A DNA stretch of 64,000 nt from a virus (taxonomy: Duplodnaviria > Caudoviricetes): IMG/VR virus record IMGVR_UViG_2786546892_000017; one strand, given 5' to 3'. Shown in pieces: positions 13,077 through 49,391 of the stretch. How positions within the stretch are numbered: the stretch's first letter is position 1; each line of letters opens with the position of its first letter. Under the pieces are notes generated by a model. The model saw only the letters and a program-made list of their open reading frames with translations, ran no database searches and had not been told where the DNA came from. Both the position numbers and the translations under genes were made by a program.

Positions 13077-13164
13077 CGGAGAGGGAGGGATTCGAACCCT
13101 CGGTAAGGACAAGCCCTACTCCGGTTTTCAAGACCGGCCCATTAAACCACTCTGGCACCTCTCC
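13077..13164 (-). tRNA. tRNA-Ser (anticodon TGA), CCA not encoded
   Basis: Acceptor stem GGAGAGG/CCTCTCC, anticodon arm CCGGT-CTTGAAA-ACCGG, long variable arm, T arm GAGGG-TTCGAAT-CCCTC. Confidence 0.97.
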
Positions 13165-40454: not shown

Positions 40455-42458
40455 CTAGCTGCATCCGGTCATCATTTGGCACGCGGTCCGCGTGGGGTAT
40501 ATGCCACCACCCACCGGCTGACAGACCCCCAACACGCAATTCCAGCCGATGCCACCGCTACTCGTGCTGCTCGTTGTTCCGTCCGCGCAGACTGCCTGGC
40601 AATCGAGGCTCGTCGCGTAGGGGCCGCCACCGGGGGTAGCCCCGGTAGGGCACAAACCGCCGACGAGGGTGGCGCAGAAGTCCGGGGACGGGCAGCAGTA
40701 ATACCCCGTCCCCGTGCTGGTACTGGTCGTCGTGGTCGTCGTCGTTGAAGTCGTGGTGCTGGTCGTCGTGCTGGTGGTCGTCGCGGGGGCAGTGCTGGTG
40801 CTGGATGTCGTGCTGGTGGTACTCGTCGTCGTACCGGGCAAGCACGGGGACGCGACGCACAGCGCTACGGTGGAGTAAGTCATCCCGGTGTTGATGTCGA
40901 TTGCGCCCGGGTAGTACATGTAGAGATCGGCCAAGCTGATGTGGCACTCGGCAAACGGACCCGAAACGGCCGACCCGTTGTACAGATAAAACGTGTAGCA
41001 TGTGTACGGCGGTGACGTACTGGTACTCGTCGTCGTGCTGGTCGTCGTCCCGGGCGGCGTACTGGTCGACGGATTCACGCACGGTGTAATAGCCCAGTCG
41101 CACGGGCCGGTAGGAGATCGATCCGGGACGCCGCAGACGCAAACGATGCCGGCGCCACTGCACGTTCCACTCACCACGCCATCGCACGTCGTTACCGGCA
41201 CGGGCAGGCACGAGCCGCTTATCTGGGCCCACCCGCCCAGCCCGTTGGGGCCCATAACACAAGTGCCACAGCAGATACACGGAGCGGGCGGTGGCGGCGG
41301 AACAGGTGTACTCGTACTGATAGGGCCGCAATACGGAGGGGTGTACGATCCGCCGGAGATGCAAGCCGTCGTCACCGCGGTAACGCACCCACCGGGCGAC
41401 ACCGGAGGCGGGCACGGCGGCCACGGGCAATCGCACCCTGTCCCGCACGCGAGTGTCTTTAGGTACTCCCCTGAACCGTTGTCCGTGAAAAGGCAGTAGT
41501 TTGGATTGCACCCGGGCGTACTGGTGCTGGTTGTGGTGGTGGTGGTGGTGTACGGCGGGGCCTGAAACTCCCAATAATACGGCTCGTCCGGCGCCGCAAT
41601 GACCAACGTCGGCGACACGTACCCCGCCCCGCCGGCCCCCAATACCAGAGTGGCCACCTTGCCACCCGCCACGGTTGCGGTGATCACCGCACCGGCACCG
41701 GCTGGGTCCGACACCGTCACCTGCGGGGAGACCGTGTAGCCACCAGTCCCGGGGTCGGTCAGCGTGACGGTCGAAATGCTCCCGCCGGAATTCGCGACCG
41801 TGCCTTGGGCCGTCGTCTGCCGATTCGTCGGGCTGGCCCAGAACCGCGCGTTAACCTTGCCGTGGGTGTCGATTACGGGGATCAGACCTGTCACCGGATC
41901 AGGCACGGGAACAGCGTTCCAGACCTGGACCGGATCGGATGTGTCCTGCCAGGTCGGGGCAGTGGCGGCCGTCACTAATTCTTGCGGCTGCCAACTATAA
42001 AGGAACCCACCGGAAGACGACGTGGAGCCCGTCACCCGCCCCCACATGCTGGCTTGCAGGATACTGAATTCCCACATGCCCGATTGCGTCGGCGACTTCC
42101 AGAACCACCCGTATAAGTTGCCCGGTTTGTCGTCAGTGAGCGTGTCGGTCGGGAACGGATCGCCCTGTACGGGGAACGACGAGTTGACCACCTCGTCCTG
42201 CGAATCGTCATCAATGAACGTGCCGTCCGCCTGCATCACCTGCGGCTGGTAGCTGTACACCTTCTGGGCTCCGGGGCCCGCCGCCTTCCCCGTCAATCTC
42301 CCCCACTGCCCATCGAGCATGTTGGGCAGCTGGATCGACCTCGCCCCGTTCGGACCTGGCACCTCCGAGAACGGCGCGGGGAACCGCAACCCCTCGACGG
42401 CCCGGAGGCGACGGTCGAGGGCGTCCAGGCGGGCACGGTCGGCTGCTGAGTCTGCCAT
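40455..42458 (-). CDS. Cys-rich, Thr/Ser-tract virion (tail-tip) protein
   Basis: Poly-Thr tracts, many Cys, GGYTVSPQVTV structural repeat; motif-2 promoter. Confidence 0.7.
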   Translation of the reverse strand: MADSAADRARLDALDRRLRAVEGLRFPAPFSEVPGPNGARSIQLPNMLDGQWGRLTGKAAGPGAQKVYSYQPQVMQADGTFIDDDSQDEVVNSSFPVQGDPFPTDTLTDDKPGNLYGWFWKSPTQSGMWEFSILQASMWGRVTGSTSSSGGFLYSWQPQELVTAATAPTWQDTSDPVQVWNAVPVPDPVTGLIPVIDTHGKVNARFWASPTNRQTTAQGTVANSGGSISTVTLTDPGTGGYTVSPQVTVSDPAGAGAVITATVAGGKVATLVLGAGGAGYVSPTLVIAAPDEPYYWEFQAPPYTTTTTTTSTSTPGCNPNYCLFTDNGSGEYLKTLACGTGCDCPWPPCPPPVSPGGCVTAVTTACISGGSYTPPYCGPISTSTPVPPPPPAPCICCGTCVMGPNGLGGWAQISGSCLPVPVTTCDGVVSGTCSGAGIVCVCGVPDRSPTGPCDWAITPCVNPSTSTPPGTTTSTTTSTSTSPPYTCYTFYLYNGSAVSGPFAECHISLADLYMYYPGAIDINTGMTYSTVALCVASPCLPGTTTSTTSTTSSTSTAPATTTSTTTSTTTSTTTTTTTSTSTGTGYYCCPSPDFCATLVGGLCPTGATPGGGPYATSLDCQAVCADGTTSSTSSGGIGWNCVLGVCQPVGGGIYPTRTACQMMTGCS

Positions 42459-42463
42459 AGGGG

Positions 42464-42550
42464 GAATGTGGGGTCCGCGGGGGAACACTGTGAGCATCCT
42501 AACGAGGTCCGTTGCCTGAGTGAGATAGTGCCCACGAACCGGCCACATTC
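42464..42550. promoter_or_regulatory. Divergent triple promoter: motif-2 (-) 42464-42488, motif-1 (-) 42496-42521, motif-2 (+) 42526-42550
   Basis: All three motifs readable with conserved spacing. Confidence 0.75.
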
Positions 42551-42556
42551 GGGGGC

Positions 42557-43780
42557 ATGGCAGAACTGGAAAGCGAAGAAATCGGCGGCGACGACCTGTT
42601 CCCCGGCGTGCCCAGCTCGGGCTCCCCGGCGTCGTACATTTTGCCCGAGCCCGACCCCGCCGATAATTTCGACGCGGATACCAATTGGTCCGAGCAAGTC
42701 ACCGGCAACGAGGCCCCGGGCGGCGGGTCGTCTTTTAGTCGCGACGAGGGGAATGCGGGGTTGTACGGCTATGTACCGTACAACATGGTTCGGACCGCCG
42801 TAAGAGACATGGTCGGGTACTGTTGGGCCGACCAAGGGCCGCCTTGGCAACTCCACCGCGTCAACCCGTGGCAACACCCGGACTTCCCGTGGATGCGGTG
42901 CCAAAGTGTTCACGTGCAACCAGTTAACCCGTGTGGAGGTCCGAGTCAGGCGGACCCGACAACCAACGTGATCTGGACCAATTCGGCGGCCACGACGGCG
43001 CCTCAGTGGTCGAGCGCAGCGACGGCGGCCGTGCGCCCGAAGCGGCAGATCAACTACACGCGGGCCGCGTGTACCCTGAGCTTCAAGCCGTTCCCGTACG
43101 TCTTCTTGGAAGACGCGGATATGCAGGCGTATGGGTTGAAGGAGTATTATCGTAACTGTGATAGATTTTCTAGTATAGACCCGGCCCTCACGACGTTGAT
43201 GGCCTCGGCTACTCCGTTCATGACTTTTTTGGAGGGTCTGGACAACTCCACACCCGGCAAGCCGCTGACCAGTTTTACGCCGCCGCAGATGTTTCAAGGT
43301 GATTTGTACGAGCTGCTATGTCAAACGGATCTGGTCTTGGCATGGTACGGGGTGCCGTTGGATTTTGTCTGCGACCCCTACCTTCCGAGCAAAATCCTTG
43401 CATGTGTAGGCACGGTTAACATTAATGATCAGTGGCTGAACGTGTTTCCCAAAGGCACGTTGTTGCTGAATGCCCCACACATTAGAAAATCAATACAGAA
43501 CGTCTGGACAACACCGAACACGATTGGCTTCACAGTCGACGTGTTTTTCCCGTTCAAATTTTTCAATCCAACAGCTGGCGTTATGCTGGACTACCAGGAC
43601 GGACGAACCTCATCCCTGACTCAACCGGTTTTTAACGGGCACAATTTGTTCCCGCTCGGGACGACTGGCAGATACTATTCGGCCGCCAGAAAGAACAAGA
43701 ATACCCAGCAGGGAGATCCGACAAAGCCACTGATTTCATTCAGCGATTTCGACACGATGTTCGCACATGTGAAATCGTAG
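42557..43780 (+). CDS. Putative minor tail protein on the opposite strand
   Basis: 407-aa ORF between tape measure and tail tip; motif-2 promoter; VGTVN..FPKGTLL pattern. Confidence 0.6.
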   Translation: MAELESEEIGGDDLFPGVPSSGSPASYILPEPDPADNFDADTNWSEQVTGNEAPGGGSSFSRDEGNAGLYGYVPYNMVRTAVRDMVGYCWADQGPPWQLHRVNPWQHPDFPWMRCQSVHVQPVNPCGGPSQADPTTNVIWTNSAATTAPQWSSAATAAVRPKRQINYTRAACTLSFKPFPYVFLEDADMQAYGLKEYYRNCDRFSSIDPALTTLMASATPFMTFLEGLDNSTPGKPLTSFTPPQMFQGDLYELLCQTDLVLAWYGVPLDFVCDPYLPSKILACVGTVNINDQWLNVFPKGTLLLNAPHIRKSIQNVWTTPNTIGFTVDVFFPFKFFNPTAGVMLDYQDGRTSSLTQPVFNGHNLFPLGTTGRYYSAARKNKNTQQGDPTKPLISFSDFDTMFAHVKS

Positions 43781-43785
43781 CCACT

Positions 43786-43912
43786 ACTCAGGCAACGCCA
43801 CCCGCTACAATTCCCTTGACGACCAGCGCGGAGTAGCTACCGCGCGTAAACCTTCCGGCCGGCACTGCGGGTTGCGTTCCCCTGTGGTGTCGGCCGGAGG
43901 GCGGGTCGTTAC
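43786..43912 (+). ncRNA. Motif-1 promoter plus structured leader RNA, copy A
   Basis: Inverted repeat of 49265-49391; three-stem fold with compensatory changes. Confidence 0.7.
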
Positions 43913-43925
43913 GAGGGAACGCACG

Positions 43926-44177
43926 ATGAGTGGAGATACTCCTGGCACCGAGACCGATGTCACGTGCCCGCAATGCGACAAGCAATTCATCTGGGTTGTC
44001 CCGTCCCCACCGCCGGTCCCAGAATCCGGACCGTGGCAGTTGCGAAAATCGGGCGACGTGTGGGTCGTCTGCCCAAAATGTAAATACACCTTCCCAGGCA
44101 ACCTGCCTTTAGAAATCAACAAGGGGATCAAGTGGCCGCAACCGAAACTGACGGACAACCCGGGCGAGCAAAGTTGA
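43926..44177 (+). CDS. Zinc-ribbon protein
   Basis: CPQC..CPKC; GAGGG RBS. Confidence 0.7.
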   Translation: MSGDTPGTETDVTCPQCDKQFIWVVPSPPPVPESGPWQLRKSGDVWVVCPKCKYTFPGNLPLEINKGIKWPQPKLTDNPGEQS

Positions 44178-44647
44178 TCGCGCGATTACCCGGCCCGGCG
44201 GAAGCCGCATACCACGCCACGGCTATCAAGACCGTCGAGCAAACCGTCCCCACGCTGAACGATTTTTTGGGCAAGATGGTCACGCTCAACGCGGCCCTCC
44301 TCGGCGGCGGCTTCTTGGTGGCCAAAGGCGACGTGCTACCGATTTGGTGGGGTATCCTTGTGATGATCTCGCTTCTGATTTCGCTGAGCGTGGCACTCTG
44401 GGGGTTAATGCCAGAGCGGTCGAACGTAAACTTGGACGCGAGGGGCGGGTTGGAAGCCTACCGAGAATTTGATAACAAGTTGATCGCTAAGAAAGATTGC
44501 GCCATCCAAGGGAGCGCCGCCGCGATAATTGCAGCGTTCGCGATCGGGGTCGTGGGGCTGGCGGTCAAGGCTTGGCCGAGCGAGACAACCGCCACCCAGA
44601 CTACGGCCGAGCGAGTCAAAGCCGACGGCCACCCGACCGGGAAGTGA
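44174..44647 (+). CDS. 3-TM membrane protein, cassette A
   Basis: Three hydrophobic helices; ends ERVKADGHPTGK. Confidence 0.75.
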   Translation: MIARLPGPAEAAYHATAIKTVEQTVPTLNDFLGKMVTLNAALLGGGFLVAKGDVLPIWWGILVMISLLISLSVALWGLMPERSNVNLDARGGLEAYREFDNKLIAKKDCAIQGSAAAIIAAFAIGVVGLAVKAWPSETTATQTTAERVKADGHPTGK

Positions 44648-44655
44648 GGGTCGGG
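44608..44655 (+). repeat. 48-bp 3' cassette repeat with CCCGACC/GGTCGGG hairpin around the stop codon
   Basis: Inverted copy at 48398-48445 (4 mismatches). Confidence 0.85.
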
Positions 44656-44674
44656 CGGCAGAGGCGACCAATTA

Positions 44675-48367: not shown

Positions 48368-48397
48368 CCCCCGCATCTCGCCCACCGCCCTCCCCCA

Positions 48398-48445
48398 CCC
48401 GACCCTTACTTCCCGGTCGGGTGGCTATCGGCTTTGACCCGCTCG
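48398..48445 (-). repeat. 48-bp 3' cassette repeat, copy B
   Basis: Inverted copy of 44608-44655. Confidence 0.85.
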
Positions 48446-49002
48446 ACCGGCCCGACTTCGGGAACCGCCACCGTCTTCACCTTCGCCCGCTGTTCGACGA
48501 TCGCACAAGCCAGCGGAACCGCCAGCAGTCCGACGGAACACGCCGACAGGATGGTCGCCACCATTAGCAACCGGGCCTTGCGGTCGCAGCCGAATAGCGT
48601 TAGGGCGGTGGCCAACACCCATTGGCCGGCGAACGCGACTTCCCCGGTCTCCGTCAGGTCCGCCGCGTACCGCGCGGCCAGCGTAACTGATGGTCTGTAC
48701 ACGGTGCCGACCTGCCGCACGAGTATGCCGTACACGATGGACGCGATGGCGCACGCGAACGCCGGCATGATCCCGATGGCCGTGGCAGGCCCGATCTTCC
48801 CCTCCGCGATGCCGGCGATCGCCCCGACCACGACAAGCCCCGCGCCCCCGCTGAAATAGCCGATCAACGCTGCCGCCTTGACGTCCAGGTCGTCGAACGT
48901 CTTGAGAGCGTAGGCGTGGTCGTCCTTGGCAGCCTGGAGCACCCACTTGTGGTCGACGCCGGGGAGCGGGATATAAGACGCTGCCCATGCCTCCGCGTGC
49001 AT
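48406..49002 (-). CDS. 3-TM membrane protein, cassette B
   Basis: LDVKAAALIG, three TMs; ends ERVKADSHPTGK. Confidence 0.75.
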   Translation of the reverse strand: MHAEAWAASYIPLPGVDHKWVLQAAKDDHAYALKTFDDLDVKAAALIGYFSGGAGLVVVGAIAGIAEGKIGPATAIGIMPAFACAIASIVYGILVRQVGTVYRPSVTLAARYAADLTETGEVAFAGQWVLATALTLFGCDRKARLLMVATILSACSVGLLAVPLACAIVEQRAKVKTVAVPEVGPVERVKADSHPTGK

Positions 49003-49031: not shown

Positions 49032-49175
49032 CTATTTCGGTGGGAACCCCCGGCGGAATGGAACCGGCCGCTGCTCCCGGGGTGGGACCGGCGGGGAGGA
49101 TGGCGGAGGAGGCGGAGGAGGGGGACTGGATGGCGGCGGGGGTGGCGATGACGGGGCTCCCGATGACTGGCTCAT
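49032..49175 (-). CDS. 47-aa proline-rich peptide (not in ORF track)
   Basis: Manual translation MSQSSGAPSSPPPPPSSPPPPPPPPSSPPVPPREQRPVPFRRGFPPK; AGGA upstream. Confidence 0.5.
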   Translation of the reverse strand: MSQSSGAPSSPPPPPSSPPPPPPPPSSPPVPPREQRPVPFRRGFPPK

Positions 49176-49264
49176 TGGCGTTCCTGAGAAGTAACCACGC
49201 TCAGCACCAGATAGCTAATCCGGTTGTCGTGGCGCCCACCATCATACGCCAAAACGCCCGCATT

Positions 49265-49391
49265 GTAACGACCCGCCCTCCGGCCGACACCACAGGGGAA
49301 CGCAACCCGCAGTGCCGGCCGAAAGGTTTCACACGGTAGCTACTCCGTGTTGGTCGTCACGGGAGATTGTATCTGGTGGCGTTGCCTGAGT
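49265..49391 (-). ncRNA. Motif-1 promoter plus structured leader RNA, copy B
   Basis: Inverted repeat of 43786-43912. Confidence 0.7.

What the first reader, a model, noticed from the sequence alone, without database searches (positions are those of the whole stretch)
43817..43912. Candidate novel structured RNA with compensatory covariation between its two copies
Seen: it begins about 6 nt after the TACAAT -10 box. Outer stem TGACGACC/GGTCGTTA. Hairpin GCGCGG-AGTAGCTA-CCGCGC in copy A becomes ACACGG-AGTAGCTA-CCGTGT in copy B, i.e. two compensatory pair changes with an invariant loop. The long stem CCTTCCGGCCGGCACTGCGGG/CCTGTGGTGTCGGCCGGAGGG has a C-G to U-G change. Inference: a three-way-junction RNA under selection, acting as a cis-leader or as an antisense RNA. 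P1 C4 RNA and P22 sar are known regulators of antirepressors, and an antirepressor gene lies between the two copies.
Basis: partly seen in the sequence, partly recalled or inferred. Interest (0 to 1): 0.8.

Follow-up and report, generated by a model that had tools for sequence, protein, structure and literature searches.

The report
C4-style anti-ribosome-site leader RNA family
The two flagged copies are real members of a widespread but uncatalogued family of folded mRNA leaders on prophages and genomic islands, in which one loop is the exact complement of the ribosome-binding site of the gene just downstream, so the leader probably controls that gene's translation.

Summary
Observation confirmed. 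Two inverted copies (43816-43912 +, 49360-49265 -) fold into the same three-way junction (z -6.5 and -6.1) and are the only copies in the 12.36-Mb genome. They are not orphans. A covariance model finds the RNA in 45 of 151 genomes of the same bacterial family. Record titles of the public matches name Gemmataceae. Weaker, shorter relatives occur in other Planctomycetota, Alphaproteobacteria, Firmicutes and uncultured phage contigs. Across 52 aligned sequences 89.5% of pair cells are paired (59.6% shuffled), and all 21 P3 pairs show double changes. The RNA starts at the transcript 5' end and stops just before a ribosome-binding site. The P3 apical loop is complementary to that site: at least 7 nt in 65 of 90 members, against 4.7% of cross-pairs. 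The near-invariant P2 loop carries a 6-nt palindrome that stays palindromic when it changes (UAGCUA, UAAUUA, UCAUGA). No Rfam 15 family matches, although Rfam C4 finds P1 c4 in a positive control. The design is that of P1 c4: closing stem, constant hairpin, antisense-loop hairpin, targets downstream. The family is different, and it shows no link to the antirepressor gene. No expression data exist. On other DNA the scan noted only other RNAs with anti-leader loops, not this family.

The parts
43787..43811 (+). Promoter of cassette A: island-specific box CTCAGGCAACG (43787-43797) plus -10 TACAAT (43806-43811)
   Evidence: The box has 14 matches (up to 1 mismatch) in the window against 1.22 expected. 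13 of 19 exact genomic matches lie in one 49-kb stretch. In every copy a TAnnAT follows 7-8 nt downstream.
43816..43912 (+). Leader RNA copy A, a three-way junction. P1 43817-43824 with 43904-43911. P2 43826-43831 with 43840-43845, loop AGUAGCUA 43832-43839. P3 43851-43871 with 43881-43901, loop 43872-43880.
   Evidence: Fold (-63.1 kcal/mol, z -6.46). Covariance model scores 115.6 bits (R1) and 81 bits (R2).
43873..43881 (+). Anti-RBS sequence UGCGUUCCC in and next to the P3 apical loop of copy A
   Evidence: 9-nt perfect complement to 43915-43923.
43915..43928 (+). Target of the P3 loop, GGGAACGCA (43915-43923, covers the Shine-Dalgarno region), and start codon ATG 43926-43928 of the first ORF
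43926..44177 (+). First ORF of cassette A, 83 aa, CxxC...CxxC zinc-ribbon-like
   Evidence: The zinc-ribbon Pfam hits are all below their cut-offs (best E 7.7e-5).
44132..44647 (+). Second ORF of cassette A, a membrane protein ending ERVKADGHPTGK. A TTG at 44174 overlapping the upstream stop is a possible true start (inference).
   Evidence: (no Pfam family).
44604..44664 (+). Shared 3' block of cassette A: the last 12 codons plus a hairpin around the stop codon
   Evidence: (I2, 61 nt, 87%).
49366..49390 (-). Promoter of cassette B: box CTCAGGCAACG (49390-49380) and TACAAT (49371-49366)
49265..49360 (-). Leader RNA copy B, same three-way junction. P2 loop AGUAGCUA is at 49344-49337.
   Evidence: Fold (-58.9 kcal/mol, z -6.05). 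Covariance model scores 111.4 bits (R1) and 80.9 bits (R2).
49173..49184 (-). GGAACGC (49184-49178), complementary to the P3 loop, 2 nt before ATG 49175-49173 of the first ORF of cassette B
   Evidence: GCGTTCC on the plus strand at 49178.
49207..49223 (-). Extra hairpin CCGGAUUAGCUAUCUGG in the longer leader B, which shows a second UAGCUA (49217-49212)
   Evidence: It is the only second UAGCUA in cis among the 93 members.
49032..49175 (-). First ORF of cassette B, 47 aa, proline-rich
48406..49002 (-). Second ORF of cassette B, a membrane protein ending ERVKADSHPTGK
   Evidence: (DUF6142, below cut-off).
48389..48449 (-). Shared 3' block of cassette B

Best explanation
Each copy is the 5'-terminal leader of a small mobile-element operon and belongs to an uncatalogued RNA family built like the c4 RNA of phage P1.

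Shown:
- The RNA starts at or within a few nucleotides of the transcription start.
- It folds into a three-way junction: P1 closes it, P2 is a constant hairpin, and P3 is a long hairpin of variable sequence.
- The P3 apical loop is the Watson-Crick complement of the ribosome-binding site of the first ORF. Loop and site change together from genome to genome.

Inferred:
- Loop-to-RBS pairing holds translation of the cargo gene down.
- The site begins a median of only 10 nt after a 19-bp P3. The pairing therefore cannot form in cis while P1 is closed. Either P1 and the loop-RBS helix are alternative states, or the pairing is made between two molecules.
- The P2 loop carries a 6-nt palindrome in an 8-9-nt purine-flanked loop, and it remains a palindrome when it mutates. 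I infer that it makes a loop-loop (kissing) contact between two such leaders, or between a released leader RNA and a full-length mRNA, and that this contact nucleates or gates the P3-RBS pairing.
- In this window both copies carry the same P3 loop and matching ribosome-binding sites, so the twin cassettes would be controlled together.
For: Structure:
- z -6.5 and -6.1.
- In 52 sequences 89.5% of pair cells are paired, against 59.6% shuffled (0 of 500 shuffles reach it) and 34-43% when partners are slid.
- 21 of 21 P3 pairs and 3 of 6 P2 pairs show changes on both sides.
- 90 of 93 members fold a P3 hairpin of at least 10 bp on their own.
- G-U pairs are frequent, which fits this strand only.

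Leader position:
- A TAnnnT box, ending mostly 8-9 nt upstream of the P1 core, is present in 77 of 93 members against 5.5% of control windows.
- The start codon follows the complementary site within 12 nt in 62 of 62 cases.

Loop-RBS pairing:
- Perfect complementarity of at least 7 nt in 65 of 90 members, against 4.65% of 8002 cross-pairs. At least 8 nt in 44 of 90, against 1.5%.
- In the window: 9 nt for copy A and 7 nt for copy B.
- Short low-GC relatives have two tandem target sites, the second next to the ATG.

Palindrome:
- Among 93 members the hexamer is UAGCUA in 81, UAAUUA in 7, UAGUUA in 2 (self-pairing through G-U) and UCAUGA in 1.
- In metagenome hits chosen for a third base other than G, with the fourth base left free, 15 of 15 read UAAUUA.
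- There is no general second site in cis.

Geometry: P3 has a median of 19 bp and the linker a median of 10 nt, with no positive correlation between them (Spearman -0.35).

C4 design: the Rfam C4 consensus structure is a closing stem, a UUCG hairpin and a hairpin with an antisense loop, and the annotated a2/b2 targets lie before icd.
Against: - No transcript, 5' end, processing, dimer or repression has been observed. No RNA run holds the locus.
- The loop-RBS complement contains the purine-rich SD core, so a pyrimidine-rich loop gets some matching for free. The cross-pair control answers this only statistically.
- The covariation counts were made on alignments fitted to the model.
- The palindrome evidence rests on few independent events. 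UAAUUA may be a single lineage and UCAUGA is one sequence.
- A palindromic hexamer could also be a symmetric DNA site.
- UAGCUA is conserved across phyla more strongly than self-pairing alone requires, which hints at an additional, universal partner.
- 25 of 90 members show fewer than 7 nt of loop-RBS complementarity.
- The direction of regulation (repression or activation) is not known.
Confidence: 0.6

Rival explanations
1. A purely cis switch that senses a factor. P2 plus the junction bind a protein or small ligand. Binding shifts the balance between closed P1 (RBS free) and the P3-loop/RBS pseudoknot (RBS masked). No RNA-RNA dimer is involved.
For: The P2 loop and the P1 core CGGG/CCCG are nearly invariant. 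UAGCUA is kept in distant phyla, as expected for a conserved binding partner. P1 and the loop-RBS pairing look mutually exclusive in cis.
Against: The cargo genes are unrelated to each other: 44 downstream ORFs gave 6 Pfam families with one member each. That is unlike metabolite riboswitches. The hexamer changes in ways that keep self-complementarity, including adjacent positions 3 and 4, which cannot pair within a single loop. A protein or ligand site does not predict this.
Confidence: 0.2
2. A 5' stabiliser or processing element. A stem right at the 5' end protects the mRNA. The long perfect P3 duplex is an RNase III site, and cleavage there frees the RBS, as in the lambda N leader (recalled).
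For: P1 begins 1-3 nt from the inferred start. P3 is a 17-24-bp near-perfect duplex in most members.
Against: This does not explain why the loop sequence tracks the RBS or why P2 is conserved. The short relatives have a P3 of only 4-5 bp, too short for RNase III.
Confidence: 0.1
3. A DNA-level element. Either the 127-bp inverted repeats mediate inversion of the 5.35-kb segment between them, or the P2 palindrome is an operator for a dimeric repressor.
For: The two copies are inverted and flank a segment inside the tail-gene region. P2 is a near-palindrome at about +10 to +30.
Against: Most genomes hold single copies. Helices co-vary with G-U pairs, and UAGUUA is not a DNA palindrome. The hexamer's axis is offset from the stem's axis. 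P1 and P3 covariation has no DNA-level explanation.
Confidence: 0.05
4. A put-like antitermination RNA, as in HK022 (recalled). The promoter-proximal folded RNA binds the transcribing polymerase and makes it resistant to terminators.
For: There are two promoter-proximal copies in one prophage. A conserved loop kept across phyla could contact a universal polymerase surface.
Against: Loop-RBS covariation points to translation. No terminator between the leader and the ORFs was seen. The operons are short and end in a hairpin.
Confidence: 0.05

Closest known systems
c4 antisense RNA of phages P1 and P7 (Rfam RF01695, clan CL00128 with c4-a1b1)
   Same: It is encoded in the leader of the operon it controls. 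It has a closing stem, a constant structural hairpin, and a hairpin whose loop is antisense to sites further down the same transcript, one of them at the RBS of the first ORF. Loop and target differ together between relatives. It is carried by phages.
   Different: There is no sequence or covariance-model similarity in either direction. The constant hairpin has a palindromic 8-9-nt loop instead of UUCG. The RNA starts at the transcript 5' end instead of being cut out by RNase P (recalled). The Planctomycete form has one target, and the short form has two copies of the same target rather than a and b. The cargo is not icd-ant.
HIV-1 dimerisation initiation site and similar kissing loops (recalled, not tested here)
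   Same: A 6-nt palindrome in an 8-9-nt hairpin loop with purines on the 5' side, and alternative palindromes in different lineages (UAGCUA or UAAUUA here).
   Different: This is a bacterial or phage mRNA leader, and dimerisation has not been shown. The function would be regulatory, not genome packaging.
Anti-SD loop small RNAs and RBS-masking leaders
   Same: A pyrimidine-rich loop or segment pairs with a ribosome-binding site.
   Different: Here each leader has its own private loop-RBS pair that extends beyond the SD core. It is also joined to a constant palindromic hairpin in a three-way junction.

Membership tests
C4 antisense RNA (Rfam RF01695) | Scores at or above the Rfam covariance-model threshold | tested here: not met
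   No Rfam match at E up to 10 in 43700-44000. None at gathering score in the window. None at the element in 35 related loci. The same library scores P1 c4 at 68.8 bits. My model R2 gives 8.6 bits on P1, and not at c4.
C4 antisense RNA (Rfam RF01695) | Closing stem enclosing a constant hairpin and a hairpin with an antisense loop | tested here: met
   The C4 consensus structure printed, compared with the folds.
C4 antisense RNA (Rfam RF01695) | Loop complementary to sites downstream in the same transcript, including the RBS of the first ORF | tested here: met
   At least 7 nt in 65 of 90 members against 4.65% of cross-pairs. Window copies: 9 and 7 nt. P1 a2/b2 annotation.
C4 antisense RNA (Rfam RF01695) | Sits ahead of an icd-ant (antirepressor) immunity operon | tested here: not met
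   The downstream ORFs are a zinc-ribbon-like or proline-rich peptide plus a membrane protein. The P22_AR_N gene is on the other strand and lacks the target sequence.
C4 antisense RNA (Rfam RF01695) | Released from the precursor by RNase P as a free RNA of about 77 nt | not testable with these tools
   No RNA run holds the locus.
Metabolite riboswitch | Conserved aptamer linked to genes of one pathway | tested here: not met
   44 downstream ORFs share no family. PADLOC gave 0 of 44.
Kissing-loop dimerisation hairpin (DIS type) | Self-complementary hexamer exposed in a hairpin loop and kept self-complementary when it varies | tested here: met
   UAGCUA 81, UAAUUA 7, UAGUUA 2, UCAUGA 1, other 2, out of 93. 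15 of 15 in the metagenome test.
Kissing-loop dimerisation hairpin (DIS type) | RNA forms dimers through the loop | not testable with these tools
   Needs native gels or SEC with loop mutants.

The most novel reading that the evidence does not exclude
A cross-phylum class of mobile-element leader RNAs works as an addressable, self-recognising translational lock. A shared palindromic 'handle' loop (P2) lets two leaders, or a released leader and an mRNA, kiss. A private 'address' loop (P3) then masks the ribosome-binding site of the cognate cargo gene. Expression would then depend on leader RNA concentration (copy number, superinfection by a related element) and on handle type. UAGCUA and UAAUUA would be orthogonal groups, as suggested by the two back-to-back leaders with different handles in locus L029. 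This would be an RNA-only immunity or dosage sensor, distinct from C4.
Probability: 0.25. Interest if true: 0.85.

Novelty: new variant of a known kind. Interest (0 to 1): 0.72.

Why it matters
The finding turns a two-copy curiosity into a well-supported RNA family with about a hundred sequenced members and covariation in every helix. It is not in Rfam 15, and none of my literature searches found it. It gives Planctomycetota, where almost no regulatory RNAs are described, a candidate post-transcriptional control element that marks expressed cargo slots of prophages and genomic islands. It shows that the c4 design (a leader-encoded RNA whose loop masks the next gene's ribosome-binding site) has arisen or diversified far outside enterobacterial phages. 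The palindromic constant loop adds a testable hypothesis of RNA-RNA dimerisation in bacterial gene control. The covariance model can be used to annotate such leaders, and with them the start codons and cargo genes of otherwise unannotatable island ORFs.

Tried and rejected
- BLAST of the 127-nt unit against 201 genomes of the family gave only short, weak matches (E 4e-4 or worse) in 10 other genomes. Homologues appeared only with covariance models.
- The exact 14-mer is not specific on its own. The reversed control pattern is also frequent in these GC-rich genomes. L050 and L056 did not match the model.
- In one search many matches outside Planctomycetota are coincidences inside coding sequence. 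Examples are identical flanks in Chlorobium and Flavobacteriaceae, or in Humibacter and Amycolatopsis. They were not counted as members.
- The antirepressor link is rejected. No complement of the P3 loop lies near the ant gene.
- C4, c4-2 and c4-a1b1 membership is rejected.
- A second UAGCUA site in cis as the partner of P2 is rejected as a general feature: 1 of 93 members.
- Defence-system cargo: PADLOC gave 0 of 44.
- Phage structural genes next to the RNA in 10 other loci: none among the 25 most frequent PHROG families or the 25 most frequent Pfam families printed, for 108 ORFs within about 6.5 kb. Primases, HTH regulators, transposases and an HsdM methylase were found instead.
- INPHARED phages: no match to the short form.
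- Expression: no RNA holder is listed for the locus.
- Literature. The motif as RNA letters has 0 occurrences; the DNA-letter hits are unrelated papers, judged from the listing only. The c4 search gave a listing only. In PMC5737381 I saw the passages found for six terms: only c4-2 is mentioned, and Planctomycetes are not. Its supplements were not seen and could list further motifs. The Gemmata and RNA terms listing held nothing relevant.
- The weak model hit on the opposite strand (43840-43926, 20.6 bits) is just the reverse complement of the P3 hairpin.

Full report
**The observation.**
- The region reads exactly as described.
- Copy A occupies 43816-43912 on the plus strand and copy B 49360-49265 on the minus strand.
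- Together with their promoters they form a 127-nt inverted repeat, 92% identical. The 3' 65 nt are 98% identical.
- The differences inside the RNA are two G-C to A-U double changes in the short hairpin, one C-G to U-G change in the long stem, one change at the outermost P1 position that adds a G-C pair in copy B, and a 1-nt deletion in a junction.
- Each copy folds alone into a three-way junction at -63.1 and -58.9 kcal/mol, with z -6.46 and -6.05. None of 200 shuffles folds as well.
- BLAST and a covariance model find only these two copies in the 12.36-Mb genome.

**Setting in the window.**
- Each copy follows a promoter-like unit, (C/G)TCAGGCAACG-N7/8-TAnnAT.
- That box occurs 14 times in the window (up to 1 mismatch), against 1.22 expected.
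- It occurs 19 times exactly in the whole genome, and 13 of those lie in one 49-kb stretch.
- Allowing one mismatch, there are 19 copies over about 55 kb, each with the -10 box at a fixed distance. It is therefore a promoter or operator private to this prophage-like island.
- The island also carries a 718-aa tape-measure-like gene and a P22_AR_N antirepressor gene.
- Downstream of leader A come an 83-aa zinc-ribbon-like ORF and a membrane protein. Downstream of leader B come a 47-aa proline-rich ORF and another membrane protein.
- The two membrane proteins share only their last 12 residues, plus a hairpin around the stop codon.
- The pair is thus a duplicated cassette frame (promoter, leader, 3' end) with different cargo.

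**Homologues.**
- BLAST in 201 genomes of the same family found nothing convincing.
- A covariance model built from the two copies (R1) found three more in 151 genomes. All three carry the same hairpin loop.
- The exact 14-mer of that hairpin occurs in 39 of 252 genomes of the family.
- 47 of the 49 loci fetched around those matches (48 of the 50 sources searched, the window included) also match a second model (R2, built from 46 sequences) at E up to 0.001. L050 and L056 do not.
- R2 finds the RNA in 45 of 151 genomes of the family (37 of 90 genera, 73 places). Many of these lack the exact 14-mer.
- R2 finds it in none of 150 sampled genomes from 78 other families of the phylum.
- Titles of public records that hold the motif name Gemmataceae, Gemmata and Fimbriiglobus. 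There are single clear members in Phycisphaerae, Singulisphaera and Pirellulales.
- I pooled 93 members for the counts below (alignments A8 and A9).

**Structure.**
- On 52 aligned sequences 89.5% of pair cells form standard pairs, against 59.6% after shuffling (0 of 500 shuffles reach the observed value) and 34-43% with partners slid by 1-3 columns.
- All 21 P3 pairs and 3 of 6 P2 pairs show changes on both sides. The other three P2 pairs never vary.
- P1 is a conserved 4-bp core (CGGG/CCCG) in most members. The window's copies have a longer, different P1.
- The alignment is fitted to the model. As an independent check, 90 of 93 members fold a P3 hairpin of at least 10 bp on their own.
- Frequent G-U pairs fit the strand given and not its complement.

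**It is a 5' leader.**
- A TAnnnT box, most often TAGAAT or TACAAT, ends mostly 8-9 nt before the P1 core. It is present in 77 of 93 members, against 5.5% of 1860 control windows.
- An ORF with a Shine-Dalgarno-like sequence could be called after the leader in 44 of the first 48 members examined, starting about 88-94 nt after the hairpin motif in most of them.

**The P3 loop is an anti-RBS.**
- I compared the apical loop of P3 (plus 3 nt on each side) with the 48 nt that follow the RNA.
- The longest perfect complement is at least 7 nt in 65 of 90 parsed members and at least 8 nt in 44 of 90.
- When loops are paired with the downstream regions of other members, the figures are 4.65% and 1.5% of 8002 pairs. 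A cruder first pass gave the same picture: 28 of 39 against 4.5%.
- The match covers the SD and extends into non-conserved flanking bases.
- It ends within 12 nt of a start codon in 62 of 62 cases.
- In the window, loop UGCGUUCCC (43873-43881) pairs with GGGAACGCA (43915-43923), 2 nt before ATG 43926.
- The identical loop of copy B matches GGAACGC (49184-49178), 2 nt before ATG 49175.

**Geometry (inference).**
- Among the 65 members with a clear match, P3 has a median of 19 bp (range 11-24).
- The target begins a median of 10 nt (range 5-16) after the 3' end of P3, and this stretch includes the 3' strand of P1.
- Longer P3 stems do not come with longer linkers (Spearman -0.35).
- With P1 closed the RBS cannot reach a loop about 50 Å away. 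The pairing therefore needs P1 to open (two alternative states) or it occurs between molecules.

**The constant hairpin.**
- Among the 93 members the loop hexamer is UAGCUA in 81, UAAUUA in 7, UAGUUA in 2, UCAUGA in 1 and something else in 2 weak members.
- Every clear variant is again self-complementary. UAGUUA achieves this through G-U, which is not a palindrome in DNA.
- In a metagenome scan that required the third base to differ from G and left the fourth base free, 15 of 15 hits read UAAUUA.
- Positions 3 and 4 are adjacent and cannot pair within one loop, and the hexamer's axis is offset from the stem's axis. The simplest reading is intermolecular loop-loop pairing.
- Caveats: UAAUUA may be a single lineage and UCAUGA is one sequence.
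- No second UAGCUA occurs in cis, except in the window's longer leader B (49217-49212).
- In locus L029 two leaders stand back to back, one with UAGCUA and one with UAAUUA.

**Wider relatives.**
- In IMG/VR the 14-mer hits at least 114 stretches. Of the 80 loci fetched, 21 match R2 at E up to 0.001.
- Most of these are a short, low-GC form (48-60 nt) with the same P1 core and P2 but a P3 of 4-5 bp.
- Its loop is complementary to two tandem downstream sites, the second next to the start codon. Examples are CATTGGA twice in L185, and TGGTAGGAA plus GGTAGGA in L151.
- Similar units with several loop-target pairs occur in a Microvirga record (10, 9, 7 and 6 nt) and in Oscillospirales-type Firmicutes.
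- The R2 scores there are modest (28-37 bits), so I treat these as probable relatives, not proven ones.

**Comparison with what is known.**
- No Rfam 15 family matches the window's element, even at E up to 10. None matches the element in 35 related loci at E up to 1.
- As a control, the same library finds P1 c4 (68.8 bits) and c4-a1b1 (51 bits) in the P1 record. R2 does not find c4.
- The C4 consensus is a closing stem around a UUCG hairpin and a hairpin with a 12-nt antisense loop. P1's a2 and b2 targets lie between c4 and icd.
- The design is therefore shared, but the family is not. The antirepressor in the window is neither downstream of a leader nor complementary to its loops.
- The motif in RNA letters occurs in no paper of the library.

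**Cargo and neighbourhood.**
- The 44 ORFs behind the leaders are unrelated. Pfam gave six families with one member each, and PADLOC gave none.
- In ten 20-kb neighbourhoods the RNA sits in stretches of lower GC3.
- Those stretches carry primase or DUF5906 genes, HTH regulators, transposases, an HsdM methylase, a trypsin-TPR protein and a ClpX-like ATPase. These are islands or integrated elements rather than core genome.

**Verdict.** The most likely function is translational control of island cargo genes by a C4-style anti-RBS loop. A palindromic constant loop probably mediates RNA-RNA contact. Expression, direction of control and dimerisation remain untested.

Noticed in passing
window 31250-58869 and beyond (own genome contig C20:162963-218494): Island-specific promoter or operator unit, (C/G)TCAGGCAACG-N7/8-TAnnAT. 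There are 19 copies within about 55 kb, and 13 of the 19 exact genomic matches lie in this island. The conserved box sits only 7-8 nt from the -10, unlike a sigma-70 -35 element.
   Followed up: partly
window 44604-44664 and 48389-48449: The twin cassettes also share a 61-nt 3' block. It comprises the last 12 codons (ERVKADxHPTGK) of two otherwise unrelated membrane proteins plus a hairpin that encloses the stop codon, with one A-C to A-U difference in the stem.
   Followed up: partly
window 49207-49223 (minus strand): Leader B has an extra hairpin, CCGGAUUAGCUAUCUGG, that shows a second UAGCUA between the junction RNA and its ORF. This gives a possible intramolecular partner for the P2 loop. 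It is unique among the 93 members.
   Followed up: partly
L029:1438-1527 (-) and L029:1631-1721 (+): Two leaders of the family stand back to back and diverge, one with loop UAGCUA and the other with UAAUUA.
   Followed up: no
L156, L204, L149, L158 and similar IMG/VR loci: The short low-GC form of the RNA precedes ORFs that begin MENEIWKD or MEIWKD. This resembles the N-terminus of NUMOD4/HNH-type phage endonucleases (recalled, not tested).
   Followed up: no
L151:3893-4476 (-): A ROOL RNA (Rfam RF03087, 365 bits) and tRNAs lie on the same uncultured phage contig as a short-form leader.
   Followed up: no
window 13077-13164 (-): An 88-nt tRNA with a long variable arm (Rfam tRNA, 61.7 bits). 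It is the only Rfam gathering-score match in the window.
   Followed up: no
window 40455-42548 (-): A 697-aa protein with long Thr/Ser tracts between Cys-rich modules, next to the tail genes. Its codon repeats show up as direct-repeat families D1 and D2.
   Followed up: no
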